Virus record (IMG/VR): IMGVR_UViG_3300045391_001467
Coordinates: 1-64,000 of that record
DNA length: 64,000 nucleotides
Direction: 5' to 3' (one strand)
Source of the DNA: a virus
Taxonomy: Duplodnaviria > Caudoviricetes
The first letter of the stretch is position 1, and the number at the start of each line of letters is the position of its first letter. Below the pieces are notes generated by a model that did not search any database, had not been told where the DNA came from, and saw nothing but the letters and a program-made list of their open reading frames with translations. Positions 3,465-55,861 of the stretch are shown here, piece by piece. Position numbers and translations under genes: made by a program.

Positions 3465-3659
3465 ATGAAAATCACTCTAGCAGAAAACATGGCACATATA
3501 CCTAGAGAATTCCAATCAGGTATTACAAATTTTGCATCTTTTGATAGAATTATCAAAGCAATGCAATCTTCCAAAGAACTTATTCTTGAAGAAGATGAAT
3601 ATGTTGCAGGAATCACTATCACAGAACAAGGACTTGCTTTTAAAATAGAGATTAAATAA
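3465..3659 (+). CDS. Hypothetical protein
   Basis: 64-aa ORF with GAGG SD. Confidence 0.6.
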   Translation: MKITLAENMAHIPREFQSGITNFASFDRIIKAMQSSKELILEEDEYVAGITITEQGLAFKIEIK

Positions 3660-3688
3660 TTTACACAGATAATTCCCTAAGTTTAAAA

Positions 3689-3871
3689 ATGATTACAATA
3701 CAAACGCCTTATGAAACATTGTTCCAATTAGCTTTTGAGCTAGGGAAAGCAAAGCTAGAGGGTGATGCAGAAAAGATCAAACAAGCTCAAGAGGCTCATG
3801 ATGCTTACAAGCAACTATGTCTTAAAGCAGAAGCTACTCACCCCAATCTTCCAAAGATTTCCTTAAACTGA
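3689..3871 (+). CDS. Hypothetical protein
   Basis: 60-aa helical ORF closing the plus-strand run. Confidence 0.55.
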   Translation: MITIQTPYETLFQLAFELGKAKLEGDAEKIKQAQEAHDAYKQLCLKAEATHPNLPKISLN

Positions 3872-4470: not shown

Positions 4471-4499
4471 TTGACATCTATGTCGTCCTATAGTATAAT
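4471..4499 (+). promoter_or_regulatory. Consensus sigma70 promoter followed immediately by a hairpin
   Basis: TTGACA-17 bp-TATAAT, then ATAAATAGA...TCTATTTAT. Confidence 0.65.
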
Positions 4500-17820: not shown

Positions 17821-17897
17821 AAATTATATCACAAATGTTGATATTTGTCAAGTTTTCCACAAGGGCTTGACAAAATGCACTTTTTGTGATATAATTT
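17821..17897. promoter_or_regulatory. Mirror-symmetric divergent sigma70 promoter pair
   Basis: Minus: TTGACA(17851-17846)-17 bp-TATAAT(17828-17823). Plus: TTGACA(17867)-17 bp-TATAAT(17890). 15-bp perfect IR AAATTATATCACAAA / TTTGTGATATAATTT. Confidence 0.85.
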
Positions 17898-18295: not shown

Positions 18296-18371
18296 GCCGA
18301 TTTAGCTCAGAAGGTAGAGCAACTCTTTTGTAATGAGAAGGTCGTGGGTTCAATTCCTTCAATCGGCACCA
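18296..18371 (+). tRNA. tRNA-Thr (UGU), encoded CCA
   Basis: 76 nt; acceptor GCCGATT/AATCGGC, D-arm GCTC/GAGC, anticodon loop TTTGTAA, T-loop TTCAATT, 3' ACCA. Confidence 0.9.
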
Positions 18372-20069: not shown

Positions 20070-20103
20070 AAGTATTGACAAAATACAATACTTGTGATAT
20101 AAT
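20070..20103 (+). promoter_or_regulatory. Sigma70 promoter upstream of portal with operator-like IR over the -35
   Basis: TTGACA(20075)-17 bp-TATAAT(20098); AAGTATTG-N8-CAATACTT inverted repeat. Confidence 0.8.
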
Positions 20104-25737: not shown

Positions 25738-25766
25738 TTGACAAAATACAAGTATTGTGGTATAAT
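25738..25766 (+). promoter_or_regulatory. Sigma70 promoter inside the neck gene cluster
   Basis: TTGACA-17 bp-TATAAT; shares TATTGACAAAATACAA (16 bp) with the portal promoter. Confidence 0.8.
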
Positions 25767-51193: not shown

Positions 51194-51513
51194 CTCACTT
51201 CCTTAATTCCAGCCATCCTGATAGCTTCCTGACAGATAGGACAAGGTTTTGCATTAGCAGGATTTCCCTCTCTATCAAACCTGCATACAAACATGCTATG
51301 AGCCTTATCAAGTCTTTTGCAGCGAATGAGAGCAGAAATCTCAGCGTGTAAGAAATGCCTATGTTCCATCCCCATTTGCTTTGCCAGTCGTGCTTGCACA
51401 GGATGGGATTTCACATAAGAATTTTTCCCAACACTGAGAATATTTCCTTTCTTGTCGTATAGAAAAGCCGTTATGTTGTATTTCTTTTTCATTTTAAAAA
51501 TCAGTAACTCCAA
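51184..51513 (-). CDS. Zinc-dependent cytidine/nucleotide deaminase-like protein
   Basis: HAEISAL and KPCPIC motifs. Confidence 0.8.
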   Translation of the reverse strand: MELLIFKMKKKYNITAFLYDKKGNILSVGKNSYVKSHPVQARLAKQMGMEHRHFLHAEISALIRCKRLDKAHSMFVCRFDREGNPANAKPCPICQEAIRMAGIKEVRWT

Positions 51514-52313
51514 CCTCTCAAGAAATCAATATCACTTTCATTCAAGCCATCTAGATTCACATTGATTTTCTCTAACAGGTCATAAGCATTCCCCGGCATT
51601 TCTTCTGCTTGCTTATCTGCAATAAAATCTGATTCTTTGAATAATTCAATAGCAGCATCCATGGAGAATGGTCTATCTGTTTCAATCAAAGCTTTTTCTC
51701 CATATTGCCCACCGATAGCAGTAGCTAAATCCTCCCAGCTACTCAATGGAACTTTTTGCAAGCTTAGACCAATGCGCAATAGATCACCTTTGCCAATTGT
51801 ATAACCTCGCTGCTGGTACTTAAGAACACGCAACAAAGAACCATAAGGATATCTAGTTCCACTATGAAATCGCAAGAAGCGTTGTGAGGCATGTTTCAGA
51901 AAATCTTCATGGAATACAAACTCTTCTTTATCAATGTCATATGCAGCCATTGCTACGGTGAAATCAAAGACATCAAAAATGTCTTGGCCTGTTTCAAAGA
52001 AATCAAAATGCATTAACTGAATAACGTGGTTATCCTTAACAAAAGTTACGGCACGATCAGAAGCAGCTACGCACCACAAGCCTTCATCATATGCTTGTCC
52101 TACGGCTAGAATAAAGTCCTTCTCAGTTTTGAAGTAAATATCTACGTCATTGACTGGGGTATTTGTAAATACACTTGTCAAAGCTCCACCTGCAATAAAT
52201 GCACCAGATGGTAAGAAGTGATATGCAGCTTCCTTAAGTGCTTTTAATTCTTTATTATGTTGTGTCATTAACTTTCCTGAACAAAAAGCCTGCAAAGCCT
52301 TTTGAGCTTGCAA
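51501..52313 (-). CDS. Nucleotidyltransferase (pol beta superfamily; start likely MTQHNK)
   Basis: IAGGALTS...NDVDIYF signature, VFDFTV, LRVLKYQQRGY. Confidence 0.75.
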   Translation of the reverse strand: MQAQKALQAFCSGKLMTQHNKELKALKEAAYHFLPSGAFIAGGALTSVFTNTPVNDVDIYFKTEKDFILAVGQAYDEGLWCVAASDRAVTFVKDNHVIQLMHFDFFETGQDIFDVFDFTVAMAAYDIDKEEFVFHEDFLKHASQRFLRFHSGTRYPYGSLLRVLKYQQRGYTIGKGDLLRIGLSLQKVPLSSWEDLATAIGGQYGEKALIETDRPFSMDAAIELFKESDFIADKQAEEMPGNAYDLLEKINVNLDGLNESDIDFLRGWSY

Positions 52314-53444: not shown

Positions 53445-53732
53445 CTACATACAAATTTTAATACTCCATCCGATAAGCAACGCTAGTGGGGGCTTAATGA
53501 TATTAACAGCGTGAAATTTTATATTGTAATCCTTCACATTTTCTACACCTACAAAGTCGGGCTGTTTCGTAATGTAATTAGCCACTAGAGTTAATCCCAT
53601 AGCAGCGTATATTGTCAGTGCAGGTAAATTAAAAGTAGAGACAATAAACCAGCTCCACAATATTGTGAGCACATAGGCACTCAGAAGATACTCTGCACAG
53701 CTTAGAGCAAAGCTACCTATAAATTTAAGCAT
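53445..53732 (-). CDS. Membrane protein (3 TM)
   Basis: Hydrophobic segments; AAGGA SD. Confidence 0.65.
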   Translation of the reverse strand: MLKFIGSFALSCAEYLLSAYVLTILWSWFIVSTFNLPALTIYAAMGLTLVANYITKQPDFVGVENVKDYNIKFHAVNIIKPPLALLIGWSIKICM

Positions 53733-53740
53733 TGTGTTCC

Positions 53741-54085
53741 TTATTTAATACTGTAAGTTAAAGTATTGTTGTGATGAAGAATAGTGAAGTAATTAAAGCC
53801 TAATCTGCACAGCAATTCTTTAACCACCTCTCGCATACCACTATTTAACATTGGGCTATCACCAGTGTCGTGAACGAGATACACAGGTTTACCCGGATTA
53901 TGCATAGCCGAAGATATATGTTCAAGTGCTTTTGCGGTAGTTTTACCGCAACACCTGTCTTCTCTAACAATCATCTCTAACACATCAGTAGAAACTGCCT
54001 TCAGAAAATCACCGTATGTTTCTTTAGCTATGTTATTCACACTCTCTAATAGGCCTTTGCGACGACATTCTATGCAATCTTTCAT
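53741..54085 (-). CDS. Hypothetical protein
   Basis: AAGGA SD; GKTT-like segment. Confidence 0.6.
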   Translation of the reverse strand: MKDCIECRRKGLLESVNNIAKETYGDFLKAVSTDVLEMIVREDRCCGKTTAKALEHISSAMHNPGKPVYLVHDTGDSPMLNSGMREVVKELLCRLGFNYFTILHHNNTLTYSIK

Positions 54086-54267
54086 GGCTATCCTTATTTA
54101 ATTTCAAAATCATATAAAGCACCTTCCAGACCATCCGCCAACTCCTTTAACATACTGATAATGTACTCCTTATGGCTGGTATAGTTCTCATCATTAAAGT
54201 ATTCATCTGGAATTTCATTAATTGTTACGTGGAAATTAAGCTCCATAGGATATTCCTCTTTAAAATT

Positions 54268-54345
54268 TAGAGCGAGCGGGGAGAATCAAACTCCCATTGA
54301 TCCGTTACGGTGCTACAAGGTAGAAGCTTGTTCCGATACGCTCGC
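54268..54345 (-). ncRNA. D-armless tRNA-like RNA with a UCU anticodon-type loop
   Basis: 7-bp acceptor GCGAGCG/CGCTCGC; ACAAG-CTTCTAC-CTTGT stem-loop; hairpin CCG-TAA-CGG; T-arm GGGAG-TTTGATT-CTCCC; ends T-CTA. Confidence 0.65.
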
Positions 54346-54358
54346 ATTAATCTGGTGT

Positions 54359-54441
54359 TGGTGGCTGGCACTGGTCTCCAGCTTGGTGCCATGTCGATTT
54401 CAGAGGCTCGTGGCACCTTGACGCTCTCTAGCGAATCAGCC
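54359..54441 (-). ncRNA. Non-canonical cloverleaf RNA ending in ACCA
   Basis: GGCTG/CAGCC closing stem then A-CCA; arms CGCT-AGAG-AGCG, GGTGCCA/TGGCACC and GCTGG-AGA-CCAGT. Confidence 0.55.
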
Positions 54442-54466
54442 TTCGCAATTCCCCCAACGAAACATC

Positions 54467-54495
54467 ATTATATACTAATTAATCCCTACTGTCAA
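54467..54495 (-). promoter_or_regulatory. Consensus sigma70 promoter driving the tRNA-like RNAs
   Basis: TTGACA(54495-54490)-17 bp-TATAAT(54472-54467). Confidence 0.85.
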
Positions 54496-54707
54496 TAAAT
54501 TCCCTGCCCATATTGCGTGGCATTATACCAACTAAAATACGTACCTTTGTTATAGCTATCCCAAAACATTTTTGTACGAGTGTTCTTTACATAATCATTT
54601 CCAGCCTTGCGGCGATGCATATAGTCTTCATAAGACTCATCTTCAATCCGTTTAGGCTGAAGAAATGTACGGTTTTCTTGCAAGAATGTTTTATTTGCTT
54701 GCATCAT
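54492..54707 (-). CDS. Hypothetical protein
   Basis: ATGA overlap; PKRIEDESYEDY..RR pattern. Confidence 0.65.
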   Translation of the reverse strand: MMQANKTFLQENRTFLQPKRIEDESYEDYMHRRKAGNDYVKNTRTKMFWDSYNKGTYFSWYNATQYGQGIY

Positions 54708-54931
54708 AGCATCATCTCTAAAATATATCCTTCCAAATTTTTAATTTGAGAATATGTGAAAATATTCCCTACACTCTCTCCATTAGCTAGAATATCTATG
54801 ATTTCCACATTTGGAGGCTCTGCTGGAGAGCTAGATGTAGCGGGATAAAATGGTGTAAAATAAAATAACACCTCTGCTTTTATTTCATCATCTGTTATTG
54901 GGTGGTTTACTGTTATTGATATTTGTCTCAC
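54704..54931 (-). CDS. Hypothetical protein
   Basis: GGAG SD; co-oriented. Confidence 0.6.
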   Translation of the reverse strand: MRQISITVNHPITDDEIKAEVLFYFTPFYPATSSSPAEPPNVEIIDILANGESVGNIFTYSQIKNLEGYILEMML

Positions 54932-55101
54932 AAATATTTATACTCCACACTGAGTAATACATCCTCCAGTACTCTTCCATTAGTTCCTTACAATATTTCA
55001 TATAAAGTATTGGCATATCTTGAATAATTAGCCATTGAGCGTAAGATGAGCACATTACGTTTTATCCTAGATGTTTCTAGTTTTAATAGCACACTTCATT
55101 T

Positions 55102-55311
55102 TCAATCCCCTTTGTTCATCCATCTTCTGATAACATACTGTCTAGATAAACTGATCAATGTAAATATAACTCCAACCAATAACCCATCATGTACGGTTAG
55201 TTTATACCCCATGCTAGGAAATACAATCATATTAGCTATAAAGTTGATAGAAAAACCTATAGCAATATTAATACATGCTTCTAAAAAGCTTCGCTGCTTA
55301 GACTGAGCCAT
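55102..55311 (-). CDS. Small membrane protein
   Basis: QSKQRSFLEACINIAIGF...SRQYVIRRW, a common small phage TM protein pattern. Confidence 0.7.
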   Translation of the reverse strand: MAQSKQRSFLEACINIAIGFSINFIANMIVFPSMGYKLTVHDGLLVGVIFTLISLSRQYVIRRWMNKGD

Positions 55312-55861
55312 TAGCTGAATCTTCCATTCTTAATTTACCCATAACATCATCAATCCCCCTGTACAACTCTTCTAATGACCTATTATTCTCAATAGTAATA
55401 TCAACCAATGATGGAGAAATACCTGCTTCGCTGGGATGCACAAACTTTGTGCCCGATTCTTCACGTCTTACCTCTATAATATAACCACTATCTTGTGTAA
55501 TCATTTCGGCTTCATTGTCAAATCGGCAGTCAGTAATACACACGTTATACCCTAGATCGAAGTATTCATTGATTTTTTTCTTAGCAAGAATTAGCCACAA
55601 ATTTTGATGCACCAGATTTCGACCATATTCTGTGCCTAGTAATTGCATAAGTTGTCTAGGAGATTTCTCAATGTCGGGAATAATCTCTTCTTTTAACGGA
55701 TGTTCAAGATAGGTATTATCAAGCCCGAACATAACTTTAACACCTTCTTTTAACGGAGCTGCAAACGATGCAAGTTGAAAATTATGGTTTGCTTTAAGAT
55801 AGTTCCCTACAGTATCTTTTCCTGCCCCAGCCTTCCCTGTTAATCCAATCAAGAGACTCAT
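55298..55861 (-). CDS. Deoxynucleoside monophosphate kinase
   Basis: IGLTGKAGAGKDT, FAAPLK, PRQLMQLLGTE, DCRFDNE, HPSEAG. Confidence 0.9.
   Translation of the reverse strand: MSLLIGLTGKAGAGKDTVGNYLKANHNFQLASFAAPLKEGVKVMFGLDNTYLEHPLKEEIIPDIEKSPRQLMQLLGTEYGRNLVHQNLWLILAKKKINEYFDLGYNVCITDCRFDNEAEMITQDSGYIIEVRREESGTKFVHPSEAGISPSLVDITIENNRSLEELYRGIDDVMGKLRMEDSANGSV

What the first reader, a model, noticed from the sequence alone, without database searches (positions are those of the whole stretch)
54268..54495. Dedicated promoter driving two tandem non-canonical tRNA-like RNAs
Seen: a perfect TTGACA-17-TATAAT promoter faces about 200 nt with no credible ORF. It is followed by (a) an 83-nt four-arm RNA closed by GGCTG/CAGCC and ending ACCA, with no canonical D, anticodon or T loop, and (b) 13 nt later a 78-nt RNA with a perfect 7-bp acceptor, a normal T-arm and a 5-bp/7-nt stem-loop with UCU at the anticodon position, but only about 5 nt where the D-arm belongs, an extra hairpin in the variable region, and CTA instead of CCA. 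Known: phage tRNAs and tRNA-like RNAs can counter anticodon nucleases and tRNA-depleting defences. Inference: these are processed like tRNAs but may act as decoys or ligands for tRNA-targeting defence proteins, synthetases or the phage's own RNA-repair enzymes. Standard tRNA finders would probably miss or discard them.
Basis: partly seen in the sequence, partly recalled or inferred. Interest (0 to 1): 0.78.

Follow-up and report, generated by a model that had tools for sequence, protein, structure and literature searches.

The report
Two unlisted tRNA-shaped phage RNAs
A strong early promoter in this uncultured phage drives two real RNA genes that databases and tRNA finders miss: a folded, tRNA-shaped RNA of unknown job, and an arginine tRNA whose D-arm is wired in a way not seen in ordinary tRNAs.

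Summary
All features lie on the minus strand.

**RNA-B (54345-54268)** belongs to a phage-only family with 72 distinct sequences. These are UCU-anticodon tRNAs with a normal acceptor stem, anticodon arm and T-arm. The D-arm is re-threaded: three bases before the anticodon arm pair with three bases after it, with compensatory changes. A normal-looking D-loop (GGA) then follows. The "variable-region hairpin" is refuted. RNA-B most likely reads AGA as a working tRNA-Arg. It stands where the canonical tRNA-Arg(UCU) is missing in phage tRNA arrays, and this phage uses AGA and AGG for 48% of its arginine codons.

**RNA-A (54458-54357)** belongs to a second uncatalogued family, also found in P1, HK620, Klebsiella phages and E. 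coli prophages. Its conserved fold is an outer stem plus two hairpins whose loops pair with each other. Its ACCA end is not conserved, and its function is unknown.

Neither family is in Rfam, annotated in any public record I looked at, or described in any paper I could search. Earlier agents of this scan found both families on other DNA. The two families co-occur only occasionally.

The parts
54467..54495 (-). Consensus sigma-70 promoter: -35 at 54495-54490, 17-nt spacer, -10 at 54472-54467. The transcript probably starts near 54460-54458.
   Evidence: 12 of 12 match. Six perfect copies in the window against 0.10 expected, and none of 100 shuffles reached six. The start site is inferred from spacing only.
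54357..54458 (-). RNA-A, a member of an uncatalogued phage family of tRNA-shaped RNAs with two loop-pairing hairpins. The whole element runs from the outer-stem 5' strand to the outer-stem 3' strand.
   Evidence: Model R3 was built from 30 homologues without this sequence. It hits here at 52.7 bits, E 6e-13, and this is the only hit in the genome.
54452..54458 (-). RNA-A outer stem, 5' strand. It pairs with 54357-54363 (6 of 7 pairs).
   Evidence: All 7 outer-stem pairs show changes on both sides across the family.
54431..54446 (-). RNA-A first hairpin: 5-bp stem and 6-nt loop GGCUGA.
   Evidence: The stem covaries (five stem versions) and the loop is conserved.
54385..54417 (-). RNA-A central hairpin (7-bp stem, 19-nt loop), lying in the family's hypervariable middle.
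   Evidence: Single-sequence fold only. The middle ranges from 37 to 109 nt in relatives.
54364..54382 (-). RNA-A second hairpin: 5-bp stem and 9-nt loop. Four loop bases (54373-54370) can pair with the first hairpin's loop (54440-54437).
   Evidence: The stem covaries. The loop-loop pairing is 99% kept across the family, with two A-U swaps. The window copy forms 4 of the 5 loop pairs.
54357..54363 (-). RNA-A outer stem, 3' strand, followed by ACCA (54356-54353).
   Evidence: ACCA follows the stem in only 2 of 32 members.
54268..54345 (-). RNA-B, a rewired-D-arm tRNA-Arg(UCU), 78 nt.
   Evidence: 95.7 bits with family model R1, whose seed alignment includes this sequence, against at most 31 bits for ordinary tRNAs. 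BLAST matches to phages DC31 and SOVA965.
54339..54345 (-). RNA-B acceptor stem, 5' strand. It pairs with 54272-54278.
   Evidence: All 7 pairs covary across 70 sequences.
54333..54335 (-). RNA-B CGG, the first strand of the rewired D-stem. It pairs with CCG at 54308-54310, around the anticodon arm.
   Evidence: 99.5% paired. The second pair reads GC 55, AU 10, UA 3, CG 1; the third reads GC 56, CG 9, AU 2, UA 1. RNAalifold predicts the helix unprompted.
54315..54331 (-). RNA-B anticodon arm. The loop is 54326-54320 and the anticodon UCU is 54324-54322.
   Evidence: UCU, U33 and A37 are invariant in all 72 distinct members, although the first scan pattern left the anticodon free.
54296..54310 (-). 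RNA-B second D-stem strand (CCG) followed by a D-loop-like run UAA-C-GGA-UCAAU.
   Evidence: UAA and GGA are nearly invariant. Between them lie one or two bases of any kind, like positions 16/17 of a normal D-loop.
54279..54295 (-). RNA-B T-arm. Its loop has U where all 71 other distinct members have C (position 56).
54268..54271 (-). RNA-B discriminator U plus CUA, with no encoded CCA.
   Evidence: 49 of 72 members encode CCA. U+CUA+A recurs in 4 members.
54094..54246 (-). First downstream ORF (50 aa), with a ribosome-binding site 22 nt after RNA-B. It is probably on the same transcript.
   Evidence: ORF list. No terminator-like site was found in 53500-55500.

Best explanation
A host-type early promoter transcribes a small RNA cassette, which tRNA-maturation enzymes then cut up.

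RNA-B is a working arginine tRNA that reads AGA, and probably AGG by wobble. Its acceptor stem, T-arm, anticodon arm and D-loop are ordinary. The D-loop and one D-stem strand, however, sit after the anticodon arm instead of before it. The D-stem therefore forms around the anticodon arm as a three-way junction, which can still give an L shape. Host ArgRS would charge it through the GGA of the relocated D-loop (A20 equivalent), C35 and U36. In this copy the CCA must be added after transcription.

RNA-A is a separate tRNA-shaped RNA. An acceptor-like stem stacks on a T-like hairpin, and an 'elbow' forms by Watson-Crick pairing between two hairpin loops. It is released by the same enzymes. I guess it acts as a stable tRNA mimic that binds some tRNA-recognising protein.

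Shown: both families, both folds, and their distribution. Inferred: processing, charging, decoding, and any role of RNA-A.
For: RNA-B:
- 72 distinct homologues, all with the UCU anticodon.
- Covariation in all four helices: 98.6% paired, 17 of 20 pairs with changes on both sides, score 0.82 against 0.21 in shuffles. RNAalifold gives the same fold.
- A canonical T-loop in 71 of 72 members, and an encoded CCA in 49 of 72.
- The discriminator is A or G in 63 of 72. A20, C35, U36 and A/G/U73 are the bacterial arginine identity set (PMC9976931).
- Members lie inside phage tRNA arrays at tRNA-like spacing.
- Only 3 of 73 family loci also hold a canonical tRNA-Arg(UCU), and in one of those the rewired copy has a broken acceptor stem.
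- This phage has only one other tRNA and uses AGA for 30% and AGG for 18% of its arginine codons.
- Several members have their own consensus promoters.

RNA-A:
- 52.7 bits, E 6e-13, to a model built without it.
- Family covariation.
- 12 of 32 members lie within 300 nt of a tRNA or RNA-B on the same strand, in several cases only 4-14 nt away.
Against: - No expression, end-mapping or charging data exist for either RNA.
- The window copy of RNA-B is the only member with U at T-loop position 56. It also lacks CCA and has U73, so it may work less well than its relatives.
- Two loci carry both an intact rewired tRNA and a canonical tRNA-Arg(UCU), so the two are not strictly exclusive.
- Family members were collected with patterns that fix parts of the sequence, and the RNA-A set with a script that demanded pairing. 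Percent-paired values are therefore inflated; the variety of pair types is not.
- Nothing points to a specific partner for RNA-A.
Confidence: 0.6

Rival explanations
1. RNA-B is not a decoder. It is a decoy or sponge that mimics tRNA-Arg(UCU) to absorb a host anticodon nuclease or another tRNA-targeting defence. Alternatively, it is a nuclease-resistant replacement whose altered core is what escapes recognition.
For: - The anticodon loop is invariant and identical to that of bacterial tRNA-Arg(UCU).
- The family was seen only in viral DNA: none of 28 pattern hits in 185,579 prokaryote genomes is a member.
- It is often the only tRNA-like gene in a locus and has its own strong promoter.
- A probable Gad2-like anti-defence gene lies 2 kb downstream.
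- Phage tRNAs that evade tRNA-targeting defences are documented (PMC10264068 and PMC11555353, from titles and abstracts listed).
Against: - A pure decoy would not need the ArgRS identity set, a canonical T-loop, a 7+5 bp acceptor/T stack and an encoded CCA all at once.
- It would also not be expected to displace the canonical gene from arrays.
- I know of no nuclease specific for tRNA-Arg(UCU) in these hosts.
- The 'resistant replacement' version is compatible with the best explanation rather than opposed to it.
Confidence: 0.2
2. The window's copy of RNA-B is a decaying pseudogene of the rewired tRNA family.
For: It has a unique C-to-U change at T-loop position 56, no CCA, a U discriminator, and C at position 38.
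Against: - All four helices are perfect.
- The rewired D-stem and the GGA are intact.
- It scores 95.7 bits, inside the family range of 90-102, though it was in the seed alignment.
- It sits behind a perfect promoter.
- The phage has no other AGA reader.
- U73 is among the listed bacterial arginine determinants.
- CCA-less members recur 23 times.
Confidence: 0.1
3. RNA-A is a passive processing or punctuation element. On this view it is a tRNA-shaped handle that lets RNase P and 3' nucleases separate neighbouring tRNAs and mRNAs, or protects the transcript's 5' end, and it has no role of its own.
For: - It directly abuts tRNA genes in some loci.
- It lies at the 5' end of the transcript here and in the late leader of HK620.
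- Its middle is hypervariable.
Against: - 20 of 32 members stand alone, far from any tRNA.
- The loop and linker sequences are conserved across phages of Pseudomonadota from several orders, more strongly than a mere cleavage handle would need.
- P1 keeps two copies.
Confidence: 0.25
4. RNA-A is an aminoacylatable, CCA-ended tRNA-like RNA or a tmRNA-like tRNA domain.
For: - The window copy ends in ACCA after a 7-bp stem.
- Short 5' and 3' stretches resemble tmRNA ends. This rests on my own recollection of the E. coli ssrA sequence.
- In P1 and VLCpiS13b, tmRNA-like tag modules lie in the same RNA cluster.
Against: - ACCA follows the stem in only 2 of 32 members.
- There is no T-loop and no G3-U70 pair.
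- ARAGORN and the Rfam tmRNA models do not hit it.
- The window has no tag-coding module.
Confidence: 0.05

Closest known systems
Canonical bacterial and phage tRNA-Arg(UCU) (Rfam RF00005; for example E. coli argU and the gene at L139:752-828 in Klebsiella phage VLCpiS13b)
   Same: Shares the 7-bp acceptor stem, 5-bp T-stem with the usual T-loop, an identical anticodon loop, a D-loop with GGA, an A/G discriminator, usually an encoded CCA, and a place in phage tRNA arrays.
   Different: The D-stem 5' strand and the D-loop lie after the anticodon arm, so the RNA is a three-way junction and not a cloverleaf. The tRNA model and ARAGORN give no hit.
D-armless mitochondrial tRNA-Ser(AGY) of animals
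   Same: No hairpin between the acceptor and anticodon arms. It reads AGN-type codons and is missed by bacterial tRNA finders.
   Different: The mitochondrial tRNAs have lost the D-arm and the D/T-loop contact. Here the D-stem, the GG of the D-loop and a canonical T-loop are all kept and only re-threaded. The amino-acid identity elements are those of arginine.
tRNA-like structures at the 3' ends of plant RNA virus genomes (TYMV, BMV and TMV types)
   Same: An L-shaped tRNA mimic built with non-cloverleaf strand connectivity, in a virus.
   Different: Those are 3' ends of RNA genomes with pseudoknotted acceptor stems. They do not decode. RNA-B is a free-standing gene with a normal acceptor stem and anticodon loop.
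Phage T4 species 1 and 2 stable RNAs (rnaC, rnaD). This comparison is from memory; their sequences were not on hand.
   Same: Like RNA-A, they are small, stable, structured RNAs of unknown function that are co-transcribed and processed within a phage tRNA cluster.
   Different: No sequence or model comparison could be run. The RNA-A family is defined by an outer stem and two kissing hairpins.
tRNA-like domain of tmRNA (RF00023, RF04321)
   Same: For RNA-A: an acceptor-like stem, a hairpin stacked next to it, a variable insertion where an anticodon arm would be, and occasional neighbourhood to tmRNA-like tag modules.
   Different: RNA-A has no T-loop, no G-U alanine identity pair, no conserved CCA, no tag-coding part and no model hit.

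Membership tests
Canonical tRNA (Rfam RF00005 cloverleaf) | D-arm hairpin between the acceptor stem and the anticodon arm, detectable by the tRNA covariance model or ARAGORN | tested here: not met
   No hit at 54268-54345 by ARAGORN or by Rfam at E<=10. Only 5 nt separate positions 9 and 27.
Canonical tRNA (Rfam RF00005 cloverleaf) | 7-bp acceptor stem stacked on a 5-bp T-stem, a 7-nt T-loop, and a 7-nt anticodon loop with U33 and a purine at position 37 | tested here: met
   The window copy has U instead of C at T-loop position 56.
Canonical tRNA (Rfam RF00005 cloverleaf) | Aminoacylation and decoding | not testable with these tools
   Inferred only from identity elements, array context and codon usage.
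Rewired-D-arm phage tRNA-Arg(UCU) (uncatalogued; model R1, alignment A2) | Three bases before the anticodon arm pair with three bases after it | tested here: met
   In the window, CGG at 54335-54333 pairs with CCG at 54310-54308. Across the family the helix is 99.5% paired, with compensatory changes in all 3 pairs.
Rewired-D-arm phage tRNA-Arg(UCU) (uncatalogued; model R1, alignment A2) | A D-loop-like UAA, then 1-2 bases, then GGA, after the second D-stem strand, together with a UCU anticodon | tested here: met
   Window positions 54307-54301 and 54324-54322.
Rewired-D-arm phage tRNA-Arg(UCU) (uncatalogued; model R1, alignment A2) | Family model score clearly above that of ordinary tRNAs | tested here: met
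   95.7 bits, against at most 31 bits for ordinary tRNAs. The window was in the seed alignment. Non-seed members PAK_P2 and Bitten score 71 and 65 bits.
Animal mitochondrial D-armless tRNA | Loss of the D-stem and of the D-loop/T-loop contact | tested here: not met
   The D-stem is present in rewired form, and the GG and the canonical T-loop are conserved.
Kissing-hairpin tRNA-shaped phage RNA (uncatalogued; model R3, alignment A4) | An outer stem, a first hairpin with loop GRCUGA, a variable middle, and a second hairpin directly abutting the outer stem's 3' strand | tested here: met
   RNA-A scores 52.7 bits, E 6e-13, to a model built without it. Its parts were located by script.
Kissing-hairpin tRNA-shaped phage RNA (uncatalogued; model R3, alignment A4) | Five-base pairing between the two hairpin loops | tested here: inconclusive
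   The family is 99% paired, with two compensatory A-U swaps and two G-U pairs. The window copy forms only 4 of the 5 pairs.
tmRNA (RF00023, RF04321) | T-loop, G3-U70 pair, 3' CCA, and a tag reading frame | tested here: not met
   No ARAGORN tmRNA and no Rfam hit on the minus strand. CCA is not conserved. No tag module was seen in the window.
T4 rnaC / rnaD stable RNAs | Sequence or structural homology to the T4 genes | not tested
   The T4 sequences were not fetched, so the resemblance rests on context only.

The most novel reading that the evidence does not exclude
RNA-B and its relatives are fully functional tRNAs that the ribosome, EF-Tu, ArgRS and RNase P accept although the cloverleaf is broken and re-threaded. 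That would make them the first natural non-cloverleaf elongator tRNAs outside organelles. The rewiring would be selected because it hides the tRNA from a host tRNA-targeting defence. RNA-A's family would be a second, independent solution to building a tRNA shape, using a Watson-Crick loop-loop elbow, and would serve as a ligand for a tRNA-binding host or phage protein.
Probability: 0.4. Interest if true: 0.88.

Novelty: new variant of a known kind. Interest (0 to 1): 0.72.

Why it matters
The cloverleaf is treated as universal for cytoplasmic tRNAs. A conserved, phage-wide tRNA-Arg with its D-arm halves placed on either side of the anticodon arm would show that the translation machinery tolerates a different strand topology.

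It would also mean that phage tRNA censuses, codon-usage studies and annotation pipelines systematically miss one of the commonest phage tRNA specificities. Cultured, tractable phages carry it unannotated, including PAK_P2, JG003, phiPsa397, SOVA965 and DC31. The question is therefore directly testable.

RNA-A's family is present in P1, HK620, Stx-type prophages and many Klebsiella phages, again unannotated. It is a second folded RNA of unknown function in very well-studied phages.

Tried and rejected
- **Local hairpin in the RNA-B variable region.** Rejected on 70 sequences.
- **GGCUG/CAGCC closure of RNA-A.** Seven members with a different second-hairpin stem would have a U-U mismatch in that pairing, whereas the outer stem and the loop-loop pairing hold in all.
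- **RNA-A as tmRNA or a tRNA-like tmRNA domain.** No model hit and no conserved CCA.
- **Rfam.** Neither RNA hits at E<=10, and there are no hits on typical members of either family. The mascRNA hit (E 0.66) is on the wrong strand and below threshold.
- **ARAGORN in mitochondrial mode.** It draws a spurious 59-nt fold.
- **First viral scan.** It used a miscounted spacer and found nothing.
- **A single-sequence model of RNA-A (R2).** It found only a weak SOVA965 hit (E 0.55), which I first dismissed. That hit later proved to be a true member at 70.9 bits with R3, though it was in R3's seed alignment.
- **Close relatives of this phage.** Protein-anchored searches of viral and metagenome contigs found only two 42%-identical dNMP-kinase loci. 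The viral locus carries neither RNA. The metagenome locus lacks RNA-A and was not tested for RNA-B.
- **Obligate pairing of the two RNAs.** Rejected.
- **Literature.** Seven full-text searches, including literal sequence strings, found no description of either family.
- **The 270-aa nucleotidyltransferase-like ORF as a CCA-adding enzyme.** No Pfam, NCBIfam or PDB hit. The protein-atlas look-alikes are Gad2.

Full report
**Where and what**

Everything lies on the minus strand. A perfect TTGACA-17-TATAAT promoter occupies 54495-54467. The window holds six such perfect sites against 0.10 expected by chance, so this phage uses consensus host-type promoters, and this is one of them.

Between the promoter and the next ribosome-binding site and ORF (54246-54094) there is no credible ORF. 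G+C rises to 0.59 there, against about 0.35 around it. ARAGORN finds one tRNA in the whole 81.7-kb genome, tRNA-Tyr at 18296. Rfam finds nothing in this stretch even at E<=10.

The genome is an IMG/VR virus record with terminal repeats and 39.6% G+C. It is only distantly related to Pakpunavirus-type Pseudomonas phages: the SSB-like protein is 29% identical.

**RNA-B (54345-54268) belongs to a family**

BLAST matched it to unannotated intergenic DNA of Limnohabitans phage DC31 and Stenotrophomonas phage SOVA965.

Four pattern scans of viral contigs, each fixing a different part of the sequence, gave 72 distinct sequences. The same pattern scanned over 185,579 prokaryote genomes gave 28 hits. 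None scores as a member with the family model, so they are chance matches.

With model R1, members score 90-102 bits and ordinary tRNAs score at most 31 bits. Two non-seed members, from Pseudomonas phages PAK_P2 and Bitten, score 71 and 65 bits.

Cultured phages that carry it include PAK_P2, JG003, phiPsa397, five vB_PpuM phages, ventosus, UAVern, Bitten, Y1-MI, Streptomyces phages Enygma and Francob, SOVA965 and DC31. None of these records has an annotated feature under the match.

**The fold of RNA-B**

On 70 sequences the acceptor stem, anticodon stem and T-stem covary heavily.

Its closing position is any base or two bases, and it is only 81.6% paired.

Instead, positions 11-13, just before the anticodon arm, pair with positions 36-38, just after it. 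That pairing is 99.5% kept, with six different base-triplet combinations. The second pair reads GC 55, AU 10, UA 3, CG 1. The third reads GC 56, CG 9, AU 2, UA 1. RNAalifold predicts this helix without being told.

After the second strand comes UAA, then one or two variable bases, then GGA. This reads like a normal D-loop (A14, A15, variable 16/17, G18, G19, A20).

My reading is that the D-stem 5' strand and the D-loop have been moved to the 3' side of the anticodon arm. The D-stem and anticodon stem then form one continuous stack, and the GG can still reach the canonical T-loop. This is a nested three-way junction and needs no pseudoknot. The three-dimensional consequences are inference.

**What RNA-B probably does**

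- The anticodon loop is invariant and carries UCU, U33 and A37, although the first scan left the anticodon free.
- The bacterial arginine identity set is A20, C35, U/G36 and A/G/U73 (PMC9976931). The family keeps the A of GGA, C35 and U36. The discriminator is A or G in 63 of 72 members and U in 9.
- 49 of 72 members encode CCA.
- Members sit inside phage tRNA arrays at tRNA-like spacing, or alone behind their own consensus promoter.
- Of 73 family loci, 51 hold other tRNAs, yet only 3 hold a canonical tRNA-Arg(UCU). In one of those three the rewired copy has a broken acceptor stem.
- This phage uses AGA for 30% and AGG for 18% of its arginine codons and has no other reader for them.

I therefore read RNA-B as a working tRNA-Arg, with probability about 0.6. 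A decoy role (about 0.2) is not excluded. A role as a defence-resistant replacement would fit either reading.

The window copy deviates in three ways: U instead of C at T-loop position 56 (unique among the 72), a U discriminator, and CUA instead of CCA. All helices are intact, so I rate decay at about 0.1.

**RNA-A belongs to a different family**

A permissive BLAST found partial matches in Iodobacter phage PhiPLPE and Klebsiella phage VLCpiS13b.

A 16-base scan and a structure-aware script then gave 32 distinct members. They share four elements:
- an outer stem of 7 or more base pairs;
- a short linker and a 5-bp hairpin with loop GRCUGA;
- a hypervariable middle of 37-109 nt;
- a 5-bp hairpin with an 8-12-nt loop that directly abuts the outer stem's 3' strand.

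Five bases of the two loops are complementary. Across 30 members this loop-loop pairing is 99% kept. Two lineages swap the G-C pair for A-U on both sides. All seven outer-stem pairs, and several pairs in each hairpin, show changes on both sides.

Model R3 was built without the window sequence. It hits 54357-54457 at 52.7 bits, E 6e-13, and this is the only hit in the genome.

The conserved fold of RNA-A is therefore the 102-nt form 54458-54357, not the 83-nt form closed by GGCUG/CAGCC. ACCA follows the outer stem in only 2 of 32 members, so the CCA end is not a family trait.

**Distribution and possible role of RNA-A**

The 3' motif occurs in 95 cultured-phage records:
- P1, with two copies after its tRNA-Asn and tRNA-Thr genes;
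- HK620, between the late promoter/qut site and the late terminator;
- Stx-converting phages;
- FBKp34, inside its tRNA array;
- many other Klebsiella phages, and Pseudomonas and Erwinia phages.

The HK620 type is in 107 complete E. coli genomes with nothing annotated under it. Rfam has no match.

Twelve of 32 members lie within 300 nt of a tRNA or RNA-B gene on the same strand, in several cases only 4-14 nt away.

The layout suggests a tRNA-shaped RNA: an acceptor-like stem stacked on a T-like hairpin, an elbow made by loop-loop pairing, and a free-form 'anticodon' region. The same enzymes that process its tRNA neighbours would release it. What it does afterwards is unknown. I lean towards a protein-binding tRNA mimic over passive punctuation, with low confidence.

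**Are the two RNAs a unit?**

No. Among 73 RNA-B loci, three carry an RNA-A relative: SOVA965, L121 and L124. None of 27 RNA-A loci carries RNA-B. They are independent residents of phage tRNA islands that happen to be adjacent here, sharing one promoter with the downstream small ORFs.

**Known or new**

Neither family is in Rfam 15. Neither is annotated in any public record I inspected, and seven full-text searches found neither, including literal sequence strings.

Notes from earlier agents of this same scan describe both families on other DNA:
- a rewired-D-arm phage tRNA-Arg (e1-124062, e1-5833026, e1-4040528);
- a kissing-hairpin tRNA-shaped RNA in P1 relatives and E. coli (e1-402937).

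I re-derived both folds here from my own sequence sets. My data agree with those notes, except that RNA-B needs no pseudoknot.

**Caveats**

- Homologues were gathered with exact patterns, and for RNA-A with a script that required pairing. Percent-paired figures are therefore biased upward. The diversity of compensatory pair types, the R3 test and the RNAalifold result are not affected.
- No expression or charging data exist.
- The host is unknown.

Noticed in passing
window 51501-52313 (-): A 270-aa ORF with a GG...DxD nucleotidyltransferase-like motif lies 2 kb downstream on the same strand. It has no Pfam, NCBIfam or PDB sequence hit. All top protein-atlas look-alikes are Gad2 (Gabija anti-defence 2, PF26128), with scores of 0.97-0.98.
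   Followed up: partly
window 4471-4499, 17823-17851, 17867-17895, 20075-20103, 25738-25766, 54467-54495: Six perfect TTGACA-17-TATAAT promoters against 0.1 expected. Four of them share a conserved A-rich spacer start and a TGTG just before the -10 hexamer. This looks like a phage-specific early-promoter class.
   Followed up: partly
L200:160-198 (phage P1) and L139:377-416 (Klebsiella phage VLCpiS13b): Both phages carry a tmRNA-like tag-coding module upstream of their tRNA/RNA-A cluster. The reading frames end in ...MMVAA* and ...YLAVA*. Each gives a weak, sub-threshold hit to Rfam tmRNA_permuted (26-27 bits). ARAGORN calls no tmRNA in VLCpiS13b (not run on P1), and neither record has a feature annotated over the module.
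   Followed up: partly
L200:286-300, 723-737, 937-951 (P1); L139:501-516: A roughly 15-base motif (CACAACAGGUAAGGG-like) recurs at the borders of the RNA modules in P1 and VLCpiS13b. It may be a processing or recombination signal.
   Followed up: no
L103, L112, L127 and window 54271-54267: Four CCA-less members of the rewired tRNA family, each with a different acceptor stem, all end in U + CUA + A. That is the same five bases as the anticodon plus positions 37-38.
   Followed up: no
Alignment A2, columns 14-15 and 49-51 (for example L096, L098, L101, L115): A subgroup of the rewired tRNAs changes AA to CU just before the anticodon stem, giving a U-U at pair 27:43. It also changes CAA to UUA or similar just before the T-stem. 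This may be a covarying tertiary contact.
   Followed up: no
L011:3320-3396, L021:582-683, L148 (two calls just downstream of the RNA-A-like element at 3578-3739): ARAGORN reports further odd tRNA-like genes next to members of both families. They have 2- or 4-base 'anticodons', and one is a 102-nt tRNA-Arg(ACG)-like gene.
   Followed up: no
L137 (Pseudomonas phage Bitten), locus 1195-1274: The record's tRNA locus tags jump from tRNA0006 to tRNA0008 exactly where the rewired tRNA lies. An annotation pipeline may have called it and the call was then dropped.
   Followed up: no
L001:1222-1506, L002:955-1491, L136:1287-1652: HNH homing-endonuclease genes sit directly beside the rewired tRNA in DC31, SOVA965 and PAK_P2.
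   Followed up: no
L148, L160, L167, L150 (middle parts of RNA-A relatives): Some members carry a canonical T-arm-like hairpin (GGUUCGAUUCC type) inside the hypervariable middle.
   Followed up: no
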